From the IMG/VR virus record IMGVR_UViG_2585427757_000003: a stretch of DNA of 7,207 nucleotides. One strand, given 5' to 3'. The translations under genes and the position numbers were made by a program. The notes beneath the pieces are model-generated. The model did not search any database, was not told where the DNA came from, and saw nothing but the letters and a program-made list of their open reading frames with translations. The stretch comes from a virus (lineage: Duplodnaviria > Heunggongvirae > Uroviricota > Caudoviricetes). The stretch's first letter is position 1; each line of letters starts with the position of its first letter. Shown here in pieces: positions 6,269 to 6,955 of the stretch.

Positions 6269-6955
6269 ATGTCGATGTACACAACCGCCCAGCTGCTGGC
6301 GGCAAATGAGCAGAAATTTAAGTTTGATCCGCTGTTTCTGCGTCTCTTTTTCCGTGAGAGCTATCCCTTCACTACGGAGAAAGTCTATCTCTCACAAATT
6401 CCGGGACTGGTAAACATGGCGCTGTACGTTTCGCCGATTGTTTCCGGTGAGGTTATCCGTTCCCGTGGCGGCTCCACCTCTGAATTTACGCCGGGATATG
6501 TCAAACCCAAGCATGAAGTGAATCCGCAGATGACCCTGCGTCGCCTGCCGGATGAAGAACCGCAGAATCTGGCGGACCCGGCTTACCGCCGCCGTCGCAT
6601 CATCATGCAGAACATGCGTGACGAAGAGCTGGCCATTGCTCAGGTCGAAGAGATGCAGGCAGTTTCTGCCGTGCTCAAGGGCAAATACACCATGACCGGT
6701 GAAGCCTTCGATCCGGTTGAGGTGGATATGGGCCGCAGTGCGGCGAACAACATCACGCAGTCCGGCGGCACGGAGTGGAGCAAGCGTGACAAGTCCACGT
6801 ATGACCCGACCGACGATATCGAAGCCTTGTATTATCCCTCCAGTGCAGAGAAAATCGGCCTTTTTTCTCTGCCTGCAGCCCGCATGCCGTATCGGGCCTT
6901 GGGTTCTAACCTGTTGCGTAGATTTATGCAGCGGACTGCCTTTCTCCCAAAGTGA
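6269..6955 (+). pseudogene. E: Major capsid protein gene (lambda gpE-like), disrupted by IS insertion after codon 186
   Basis: ATG 6269 begins MSMYTTAQLLAANEQKFKFDPLF..., matching lambda gpE (341 aa) through ...STYDPTDDIEA at residue 186. After about 6827 the frame reads IS-derived sequence (LYYPSSAEKIGLFSLPAARMPYRALGSNLLRRFMQRTAFLPK) and stops at TGA 6953-6955. The C-terminal about 155 codons of E are absent from the window. Confidence 0.85.
6830..6835 (+). promoter_or_regulatory. Candidate -10 element (TATTAT) for the bridge RNA
   Basis: TATTAT at 6830-6835, preceded by TG, lies about 6 nt upstream of the proposed RNA 5' end at 6842. No -35 was identified; in IS110 elements a strong promoter is reported to form only at the joined ends of the circular intermediate. 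Hypothetical. Confidence 0.3.

What the first reader, a model, noticed from the sequence alone, without database searches (positions are those of the whole stretch)
6800..6845. IS621-like insertion inside the major capsid gene, at a site that is not obviously REP-like
The insertion junction reads ...GATATCGAAGC-CT|TGTATTATCC.... IS621 is reported to insert with a CT core into REP-type targets (roughly ATCAGGCCTAC, from memory). Here the target lies inside a phage structural gene and shares only the core CT and a few flanking bases with that consensus. By eye I could not find convincing complementarity between the candidate target guides of this bridge RNA (5' half of the first loop, about 6870-6888; 3' half CGGGCC, about 6894-6899) and the visible left flank. 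This is therefore either an off-target event, an insertion guided by a variant guide, or a secondary rearrangement. Functionally it truncates gpE at residue 186 of 341 and creates a chimeric ORF with a 43-aa IS-derived tail.
Basis: partly seen in the sequence, partly recalled or inferred. Interest (0 to 1): 0.55.

Follow-up and report, generated by a model that had tools for sequence, protein, structure and literature searches.

The report
IS621 off-target insertion in capsid gene
A copy of the RNA-guided mobile element IS621 sits in the major capsid gene of a lambda-like prophage, at a site that only partly matches its guide RNA; this near-cognate off-target is already listed in published data and recurs in several E. 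coli prophages.

Summary
The junction is real. Lambda-type gene E runs from 6269 and is cut after codon 186. The CT core is 6826-6827 and the IS621 left end starts at 6828.

Eleven complete E. coli genomes carry the identical left junction. In all of them the 1277-bp element ends ...AACAGTAT-CT and E resumes at once with ACGCGCTGAAC.

By the published numbering the left target guide is 6891-6899 (ATCGGGCCT) and the right target guide is 6918-6921 (GTAG, extension TGC at 6915-6917). Both are canonical.

The target is neither a perfect match nor unrelated:
- Eight contiguous Watson-Crick positions (GC-CT-ACGC).
- G:T or U:G wobbles at four positions.
- Two mismatches at the distal left end, or all nine left-guide bases paired if one A bulges out.

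It is three edits from the cognate 11-mer, so it is a near-cognate off-target.

A variant guide, a donor-like site and a rearrangement find no support; the last rests on other genomes, because the window's own right junction was not seen. The exact site is already in Durrant et al. 2024 Supplementary Data 2 (seq480, seq481), without comment. Carriers span four chromosomal prophage loci and at least four flank haplotypes, which suggests recurrence. Known mechanism, modest interest.

The parts
1..308 (+). End of an IS66-family element (ISCro1-like), including the C-terminal coding part of its transposase. It abuts the phage packaging region. It is context, and a second IS in the same prophage.
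   Evidence: blastn: window 1-308 is 97% identical to L013 11426-11119, which lies in and next to the annotated ISCro1 transposase CDS.
325..6213 (+). Lambda-type head-gene block upstream of E: small terminase, large terminase, head-tail joining protein, portal, S49 protease/scaffold and decoration protein D. Context only.
   Evidence: ORFs. The block is colinear at 97-98% identity with annotated prophage regions of 11 E. coli genomes.
6269..6825 (+). 5' fragment of the major capsid gene E (codons 1-186, together with C6826). It is truncated by the insertion.
   Evidence: Translation. The fragment is 99-100% identical to intact E alleles up to 6827.
6819..6825 (+). Left half of the target, positions t1-t7 (TCGAAGC). 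ATCG at 6818-6821 is the displaced match to left-guide bases 1-4 in the one-base-bulge reading.
   Evidence: Pairing table. Duplex energies.
6826..6827 (+). Core dinucleotide CT (t8-t9), left copy. A second copy flanks the right end, outside the window.
   Evidence: All 11 sister loci read ...GAAGCCT|TGTATT ... AACAGTATCT|ACGCGCTG.
6828..7207 (+). IS621 left end, cut by the window end. In sister loci the element is 1277 bp between the two CT copies.
6842..7018 (+). Bridge RNA gene (177 nt): 5' stem-loop 6842-6874, target-binding loop 6875-6939, donor-binding loop 6951-7018.
   Evidence: Identical to the published IS621 bridge RNA except at nt 20, 21 and 38. The published sequence appears in the supplementary alignment. 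Numbering is from PMC11208158.
6861..6862 (+). AG>TT substitution in the loop of the 5' stem-loop (bridge RNA nt 20-21). It was not seen in any of about 13,000 IS621-like left ends in 5,426 complete E. coli genomes.
6879..6879 (+). T>C substitution (bridge RNA U38C). It turns a U-A pair of the target-binding-loop basal stem into a C/A mismatch. Two REP-inserted copies share it.
   Evidence: strains A15 and L3_E36. Folding predicts the loop is about 5 kcal/mol less stable and folds differently.
6891..6899 (+). Left target guide (nt 50-58, AUCGGGCCU). Canonical.
   Evidence: PMC11208158 gives the left target guide as A50-U58.
6915..6923 (+). Extended right target guide UGC (nt 74-76), right target guide GUAG (nt 77-80) and handshake guide AU (nt 81-82). 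Canonical.
   Evidence: The role of the UGC extension is described in PMC11208160.
6269..6955 (+). Chimeric ORF: 186 residues of gpE plus 42 IS-derived residues, then a stop. It is a by-product of the insertion.
7019..7207 (+). Start of the IS621 recombinase gene (326 aa when complete), cut by the window end.
   Evidence: Annotated CDS at the same position in the sister loci.

Best explanation
A canonical IS621 element, an IS110-family bridge-RNA-guided recombinase element, inserted by its normal mechanism into a near-cognate site inside lambda-type capsid gene E.

Shown here:
- The pre-insertion site is GATATCGAAGC-CT-ACGCGCTG.
- The element sits between two CT copies in the orientation the guides dictate, and E resumes directly after it.
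- The guides are wild type.
- The right target guide with its UGC extension pairs with CTACGC by Watson-Crick pairs and with the next G by a U:G wobble.
- The left target guide pairs with the core-proximal GC-CT by Watson-Crick pairs, and with the two A's at t4 and t5 by rG:dT wobbles. The same wobble occurs at t4 in the normal REP target.
- The handshake positions t6 and t7 (G, C) are those of the wild-type target.

Inferred:
- The distal three left-target positions are either tolerated as mismatches, or are read one base out of register with one A bulged out.
- Long right-side pairing plus core-proximal left-side pairing is enough for rare recombination.

Consequence: gpE is truncated at residue 186 of 341, so the prophage cannot make its own capsid. 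That fits the absence of this junction from 83 sequenced lambda-like phages.
For: Simple insertion:
- All 11 complete genomes with this left junction have the same right junction and the rest of E.
- The empty site is seen in intact alleles, in lambda and in phage DE3.

Guides:
- They are canonical in the window and in all 11 copies. The copies differ at IS positions 405, 415, 570 and 928 only.

Pairing:
- 8 Watson-Crick, 4 wobble and 2 mismatched positions out of 14.
- The bulged duplex scores -10.1 kcal/mol against -4.7 for the fixed register. The natural REP target scores -14.7.

Published support:
- An rG:dT pair at t4 is seen in the structure and is tolerated in vivo (PMC11208158; PMC11208160).
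- A 3' GCA flank that pairs with UGC marks the most used sites.
- The identical 50-nt site is listed twice among natural targets of elements with guide ATCGGGCCTAC, as seq480 and seq481.
- In the same list, a REP variant ATCAAGCCTAC (seq303) and a non-REP site ATCAGTAAGCCTACGC (seq125) also carry AAGCCTAC.
Against: - The window's own right junction is not visible, so for this copy a simple insertion is inferred from the 11 sister loci.
- The published screen found low tolerance even for double mismatches. In the fixed register this site has two mismatches plus two extra wobbles.
- The bulge reading rests on RNA-RNA energy parameters for naked strands, not on the protein-bound complex.
- In a random 5-Mb sequence about 43 sites share RRGCCTACGC. 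Pairing alone does not explain why E is the site seen; survival of insertions in dispensable prophage DNA probably contributes.
- No experiment shows IS621 recombining with this site.
Confidence: 0.85

Rival explanations
1. The insertion was guided in trans by a variant bridge RNA from another IS621-family copy in the same cell. One candidate is the natural variant whose left guide is AUCGAGCCU, which would match ATCGA-AGCCT with only one extra A.
For: Bridge RNA works in trans (PMC11208160). A G54A left-guide variant exists in E. coli FORC_041 and Z1323CEC0019.
Against: Only 2 of 5,426 complete genomes carry that variant. The carrier genomes that appear in the listing (CFSAN064035, RM8385, 2013C-4225) have only the canonical guide as their best match. 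The two variant-carrying genomes are not among the 11 carriers. The one variant copy read (FORC_041) sits in a normal REP target. Durrant's pairing of each target with its own element's guide files this site under ATCGGGCCTAC.
Confidence: 0.05
2. The junction arose by a secondary rearrangement, such as homologous recombination between two IS621 copies or an IS-mediated deletion or inversion, so the left flank is not a true insertion target.
For: The window ends inside the element, so its own right flank is unseen. The prophage is decaying, with an ISCro1 end at 1-308. IS621-mediated deletions and inversions are reported at low frequency.
Against: All 11 genomes with the same left junction have E on both sides, an intact 1277-bp element and CT on both sides. 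Deleting the element and one CT restores E exactly.
Confidence: 0.05
3. The site was used as a donor-like pseudo-site, recognised by the donor-binding loop, as described for IS621 and IS622 off-targets.
For: Donor-like off-targets are documented. Donor-like natural 'targets' (AACAGTATCTAC) are present in the published list.
Against: The E site is 7 edits (11-mer) or 10 edits (14-mer) from the donor ACAGTATCTTGTAT. It is 3 to 4 edits from the target.
Confidence: 0.02
4. All observed copies descend from one old insertion that spread through recombination between prophages, or through helper-assisted transfer. The site would then be a one-off accident rather than a recurrent off-target.
For: The IS copies differ by at most 3 bases. 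The same near-junction haplotype occurs at two chromosomal loci, ompT-envY and att-lambda. That pattern requires module exchange or a second insertion into the same allele. Lambdoid prophages are known to recombine often (established knowledge).
Against: At least four haplotype groups differ on both sides within 20-90 bp of the element, and the carriers lie at four chromosomal loci. A single origin needs several crossovers in very short intervals. IS621 copies are nearly identical everywhere, so their identity here carries no information.
Confidence: 0.35

Closest known systems
IS621 (IS110 family) and its bridge RNA, as characterised by Durrant et al. 2024 (PMC11208160) and Hiraizumi et al. 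2024 (PMC11208158)
   Same: The left-end sequence, the bridge RNA (174 of 177 nt), all guide segments, the CT core on both sides, the element length and the recombinase gene are the same. The orientation is the one the guides set.
   Different: The target is a protein-coding phage gene rather than a REP element. It is 3 edits from the cognate 11-mer. The window copy has three non-guide substitutions in the bridge RNA.
Natural target entries seq480 and seq481 in Durrant et al. 2024 Supplementary Data 2 (sequences_extended_data_fig5a.txt, group TBL_ATCGGGCCTAC)
   Same: The reconstructed 50-nt empty site is identical, including the C/T polymorphism 20 bases downstream that separates the two haplotype classes seen here.
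   Different: The paper lists the sequences as raw input to a consensus logo and does not comment on them. 'Capsid' does not occur in its main text.
Experimental IS621 off-targets with insertions in the target, or with long k-mer matches (Durrant et al. 2024, Extended Data Fig. 7)
   Same: A CT core, more than 2 edits from the target, a long shared k-mer (GCCTACGC, 8 nt), and a pattern consistent with a one-base insertion in the target.
   Different: Those off-targets were obtained with overexpressed components and mostly reprogrammed guides in BL21(DE3). This one is a natural event with the wild-type guide.
Canonical REP-targeted IS621 copies, for example next to srmB in strain A15 and next to aspC in L3_E36
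   Same: The same element and the same CT|TGTATT junction.
   Different: Their left flank is TTATCAGGC-CT, which matches the left guide except for the one known wobble.

Membership tests
IS621 / IS110-family bridge recombinase element | Left end with the bridge RNA gene (5' stem-loop, target-binding loop, donor-binding loop) directly upstream of the recombinase gene | tested here: met
   174 of 177 nt are identical to the published bridge RNA. The recombinase ATG at 7019 follows it. No Rfam family matched.
IS621 / IS110-family bridge recombinase element | DEDD/RuvC-like plus Tnp-domain recombinase | tested here: inconclusive
   Only the first 63 codons lie in the window. The 189 coding bases seen (7019-7207) are identical to the copies annotated 'IS110-like element IS621 family transposase' (WP_000399648.1) in the sister loci. 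The protein itself was not analysed.
IS621 / IS110-family bridge recombinase element | Element flanked by the CT core dinucleotide on both sides, with no terminal inverted repeats and no longer target duplication | tested here: inconclusive
   The left CT is seen in the window (6826-6827). The right CT is seen only in the 11 sister loci, because the window ends inside the element.
On-target (cognate) IS621 insertion | The 11-nt target equals ATCGGGCCTAC or the natural ATCAGGCCTAC, usually inside a REP element | tested here: not met
   The target is TCGAAGCCTAC. Hamming distance is 5 and 4 to the two forms, and Levenshtein distance is 3 to both. The flank is coding sequence of E, not REP.
Bridge-RNA-dependent near-cognate off-target (as defined in Durrant et al. 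2024) | A CT core plus either Levenshtein distance below 3 from the target or donor, or a long shared k-mer with the 14-nt target | tested here: met
   CT core; 8-mer GCCTACGC shared with ATCGGGCCTACGCA; distance 2 if the 12-mer ATCGAAGCCTAC is taken.
Bridge-RNA-dependent near-cognate off-target (as defined in Durrant et al. 2024) | Recombination at the site depends on the wild-type bridge RNA | not testable with these tools
   This needs a recombination assay. The genome-insertion sheet of Supplementary Table 3 is not in the held text.
Handshake compatibility (Hiraizumi et al. 2024) | Target t6 and t7 can pair with donor-loop G166 and U167 after strand exchange, and do not fully pair with A81 and U82 before it | tested here: met
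   t6 and t7 are G and C, identical to the wild-type target used in the paper.

The most novel reading that the evidence does not exclude
The lambda-type capsid gene E holds a natural, reusable near-cognate site for wild-type IS621, which has been hit several times independently in different prophages. If so, natural genomes record that this bridge recombinase accepts a one-base bulge (or three distal mismatches) in the left target when the right guide pairs over 6-7 bases. That would point to a core-proximal seed rule useful for off-target prediction. It would also mean IS621 repeatedly disarms lambdoid prophages by destroying their capsid gene.
Probability: 0.45. Interest if true: 0.5.

Novelty: already known. 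Interest (0 to 1): 0.25.

Why it matters
The element, its mechanism and this very insertion site are already in the literature, the site only as an uncommented line of supplementary data. So the finding does not reveal a new kind of system. It has two limited uses.

First, it is a clean natural example of how far a wild-type bridge RNA can stray. The core-proximal and right-side pairing is intact. The distal left-side pairing is lost or shifted by one base. That bears on off-target prediction for bridge-recombinase genome editing.

Second, the insertion destroys the major capsid gene. It is therefore a concrete route by which lambdoid prophages become defective. It appears in about 0.3% of the complete genomes that carry the site (11 of about 3,200), spread over four prophage loci.

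Tried and rejected
- Rfam scan of 6700-7207 found no family. The bridge RNA had to be mapped from the papers.
- Exact-pattern scans for the junction, or for the window's variant bridge RNA, in viral, metagenome and species-representative genome collections found nothing. The source of the window was not identified.
- The phage collection has 83 records with the 5' part of E and none with the IS.
- Variant-guide hypothesis: a query carrying a hypothetical E-matching guide turned up a real but rare G54A left-guide variant. It occurs in 2 genomes only, and they are not carriers. Rejected.
- Donor-like pseudo-site: rejected on edit distance.
- REP-likeness of the flank: read by eye against the REP queries quoted in the paper. 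There is no resemblance beyond the core-proximal bases.
- A wobble-permissive score over all 14 positions proved uninformative, because about 1,500 sites per random 5 Mb score as well. Only the specific pattern counts are used.
- I looked for the E site in the experimental BL21(DE3) insertion map. The held copy of Supplementary Table 3 is truncated and has no ATCAGGCCTAC at all, so the relevant sheet is missing. Inconclusive.
- Literature search for IS621 with 'capsid' found nothing relevant.
- Using IS sequence differences to count insertion events failed, because the copies differ by at most 3 bases.

Full report
**1. What is in the window**

The window is the left arm of a lambda-type prophage: terminase, portal, protease/scaffold and decoration genes, then the major capsid gene E starting at 6269. 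It is colinear at 97-98% identity with annotated prophages of E. coli.

At 6826-6827 the E sequence ...GACGATATCGAAGC-CT runs into TGTATTATCCCTCCAGTGCAG..., the left end of IS621. The remaining 380 bases match the IS621 copies of 11 complete genomes at all but three positions. Intact E alleles, including lambda itself, match up to 6827 and continue ACGCGCTGAAC. One correction is small: the fused ORF 6269-6955 has a 42-residue IS-derived tail, not 43.

**2. The right junction**

The window stops inside the recombinase gene, so I looked for the same left junction elsewhere. Eleven of 5,426 complete E. coli genomes have it. In every one:
- the element is 1277 bp between two CT copies;
- its right end reads ...CATAACAGTAT-CT;
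- the 3' part of E follows immediately, starting ACGCGCTGAACGCCAGCGG.

For the window's own copy this is an inference from the sister loci.

**3. Where the guides really are**

I used the numbering of the cryo-EM paper (PMC11208158): left target guide A50-U58, right target guide G77-G80, optional extension 74-76, handshake guide 81-82. Nucleotide 1 of the bridge RNA is window position 6842. This gives:

| Segment | Window coordinates | Sequence |
|---|---|---|
| Left target guide | 6891-6899 | ATCGGGCCT |
| Right target guide | 6918-6921 | GTAG |
| Extension of right guide | 6915-6917 | TGC |
| Handshake guide | 6922-6923 | AT |

All are canonical.

The left guide reads the bottom strand, so its sequence should equal the top-strand left flank. 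The right guide reads the top strand of the right flank, which the window does not contain.

**4. Scoring the target**

The 14-nt target is TCGAAGC-CT-ACGCG. The guide-encoded target is ATCGGGC-CT-ACGCA and the natural REP form is ATCAGGC-CT-AC.

In the fixed register:
- t6-t13 (GC-CT-ACGC) are eight contiguous Watson-Crick positions.
- t4 and t5 (A, A) face G53 and G54 as rG:dT wobbles.
- t14 (G) faces U74 and t2 (C) faces U51 as U:G wobbles.
- t1 and t3 are mismatched.

The t4 wobble is the one present in the normal REP target. It is seen in the structure and tolerated in vivo. The handshake positions t6 and t7 (G, C) are as in the wild-type target.

By the metric of Durrant et al. the 11-mer is 3 edits from either target form, the most distant class of off-targets. 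It shares an 8-mer with the 14-nt target. It is not donor-like, at 7 edits from the donor 11-mer.

There is an alternative reading. ATCG sits one base further left (6818-6821). If one A bulges out, all nine left-guide bases pair, and the 12-mer ATCGAAGCCTAC is 2 edits from the target. Naked-duplex energies, which are only indicative, favour this reading: -10.1 against -4.7 kcal/mol, compared with -14.7 for the REP target.

[quoted passage not shown] Another non-REP natural target in their list, ATCAGTAAGCCTACGC (seq125), shows the same AAGCCTACGC with a displaced ATCA.

So the target is neither a perfect match nor unrelated. It is a near-cognate off-target with core-proximal and right-side pairing preserved.

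**5. How special the site is**

In a random 5-Mb sequence, counting both strands:
- about 43 sites match RRGCCTACGC;
- about 7 match ATCRNRGCCTAC;
- about 1 matches the latter with the GC extension.

A fully wobble-permissive score is not selective, with about 1,500 sites scoring as well. Under the bulge reading the E site is among the very few best non-REP sites in a genome. Under the fixed-register reading it is one of a few dozen. In that case, survival of insertions in dispensable prophage DNA must help explain why this one is seen.

**6. Rivals**

- Variant guide in cis: excluded, because all copies carry canonical guides.
- Variant guide in trans: a natural G54A left guide (AUCGAGCCU) exists and would fit the site with one extra A. 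It occurs in only two complete genomes, neither a carrier; the one variant copy read (FORC_041) sits in a normal REP site. The carriers visible in that listing have only canonical guides.
- Secondary rearrangement: contradicted by the 11 sister loci.
- Donor-like pseudo-site: rejected on edit distance.

**7. Already known?**

Yes, at the level of data. Supplementary Data 2 of Durrant et al. 2024 lists natural targets of elements with guide ATCGGGCCTAC. It contains the exact 50-nt empty site twice:
- seq480, GACCCGACCGACGATATCGAAGCCTACGCGCTGAACGCCAGCGGCGTGGT;
- seq481, the same with GGTGTGGT.

These are the two downstream variants I see among the 11 genomes. In that file ATCAGGCCTAC occurs 596 times and AAGCCTAC four times. 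In the 133 entries I read, almost all are REP targets. 'Capsid' does not occur in the paper's main text, and a literature search found no discussion of the site.

BL21(DE3), the strain used for their genome-wide map, carries the identical site in its DE3 prophage. The held copy of their Table 3 lacks the relevant sheet, so I cannot tell whether it was hit experimentally.

**8. One event or several**

The 11 IS copies differ by at most 3 bases. That is uninformative, because IS621 is nearly invariant everywhere.

The E flanks fall into at least four haplotype groups. They differ on both sides within 20-90 bp of the element.

The carrier prophages lie at four chromosomal loci:
- ompT-envY: Z1323HEC0393 and STEC384.
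- att-lambda next to bio: RMDEC332, CFSAN064035 and MB06102.
- ompN-uspF: RM8385 and 01_3327.
- dusA: GXU-23-25-310.

Haplotype groups and loci are not congruent. This means either several independent insertions or spread of an E::IS621 segment by recombination between prophages. I lean toward recurrence, at about 0.6, but cannot settle it.

The intact site is present in about 3,200 of the 5,426 genomes, at 4,537 places. Occupancy is therefore about 0.3% of genomes, which fits a rare event. No sequenced phage carries the insertion (0 of 83), as expected if it abolishes capsid production.

**9. The window's own copy**

It differs from every other left end in the complete-genome set.
- AG>TT at bridge RNA nt 20-21, in the loop of the 5' stem-loop. 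This is unique to the window.
- U38C in the basal stem of the target-binding loop. Two REP-inserted copies share it. It is predicted to cost about 5 kcal/mol and to change the fold.

Neither change touches a guide. With an ISCro1 end at 1-308, the picture is of a decaying prophage.

**10. Verdict**

This is an ordinary IS621 element with canonical guides that made a simple insertion into a near-cognate, non-REP site. The mechanism is known and the site is already catalogued. What remains of interest is the natural evidence for distal-mismatch or bulge tolerance and the possibly recurrent knockout of a prophage capsid gene.

Noticed in passing
window 1-308: The window begins inside an IS66-family element (ISCro1-like). 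Its end abuts the phage packaging region just upstream of the small-terminase gene. The prophage therefore carries at least two IS insertions.
   Followed up: partly
window 6861-6862: An AG>TT dinucleotide substitution lies in the loop of the bridge RNA 5' stem-loop. It lengthens a T run to six. No other IS621-like left end in 5,426 complete E. coli genomes has it.
   Followed up: partly
window 6879: U38C in the basal stem of the target-binding loop creates a C/A mismatch. RNAfold predicts a loss of about 5 kcal/mol and an alternative fold that ties up part of the loop. The same change occurs in REP-inserted copies next to srmB (strain A15) and aspC (L3_E36).
   Followed up: partly
L022 121-129 (E. 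coli FORC_041, NZ_CP016628.1), and also Z1323CEC0019: A natural IS621 copy has left target guide AUCGAGCCU (G54A) and sits in a normal ATCAGGCCT REP target. It is a rare guide polymorphism, found in 2 of 5,426 genomes. It would read the E site with a single extra A.
   Followed up: partly
Durrant et al. 2024 Supplementary Data 2, seq467-477: Eleven listed 'targets' have IS621's own 5' stem-loop sequence (GAAAATCGGCCAGTTTTCTCTGC-CT) as their left flank and ordinary REP right halves as their right flank. This suggests nested or partly duplicated IS621 left ends at CTCTGC-CT.
   Followed up: no
Durrant et al. 2024 Supplementary Data 2, seq125: A second non-REP natural target, ATTGCACTCCGTTATCAGTAAGCCTACGCTATGG, shares AAGCCTACGC with the E site. 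It has ATCA displaced by three bases, the same pattern with a larger bulge.
   Followed up: partly
L007 1-4550 (E. coli CFSAN064035): In this carrier the region upstream of the portal gene is replaced by head genes of a different phage type (a second major capsid gene, a decoration protein and a small terminase). The portal gene is truncated, so the prophage is rearranged.
   Followed up: no
L013 11149-13764 (E. coli GXU-23-25-310): This carrier prophage also has a complete ISCro1 inserted among its tail genes. ISCro1 and IS621 therefore co-occur in two separate decaying lambda-like prophages, this one and the window.
   Followed up: no
window 6806-6835: In the integrated state the bridge RNA keeps its -10 box (TATTAT, 6830-6835) but loses the -35 box that the right end supplies in the circular form. 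The E flank offers only CCGACC at 18-bp spacing. E and the element have the same orientation, so phage late transcripts could read into the bridge RNA.
   Followed up: no
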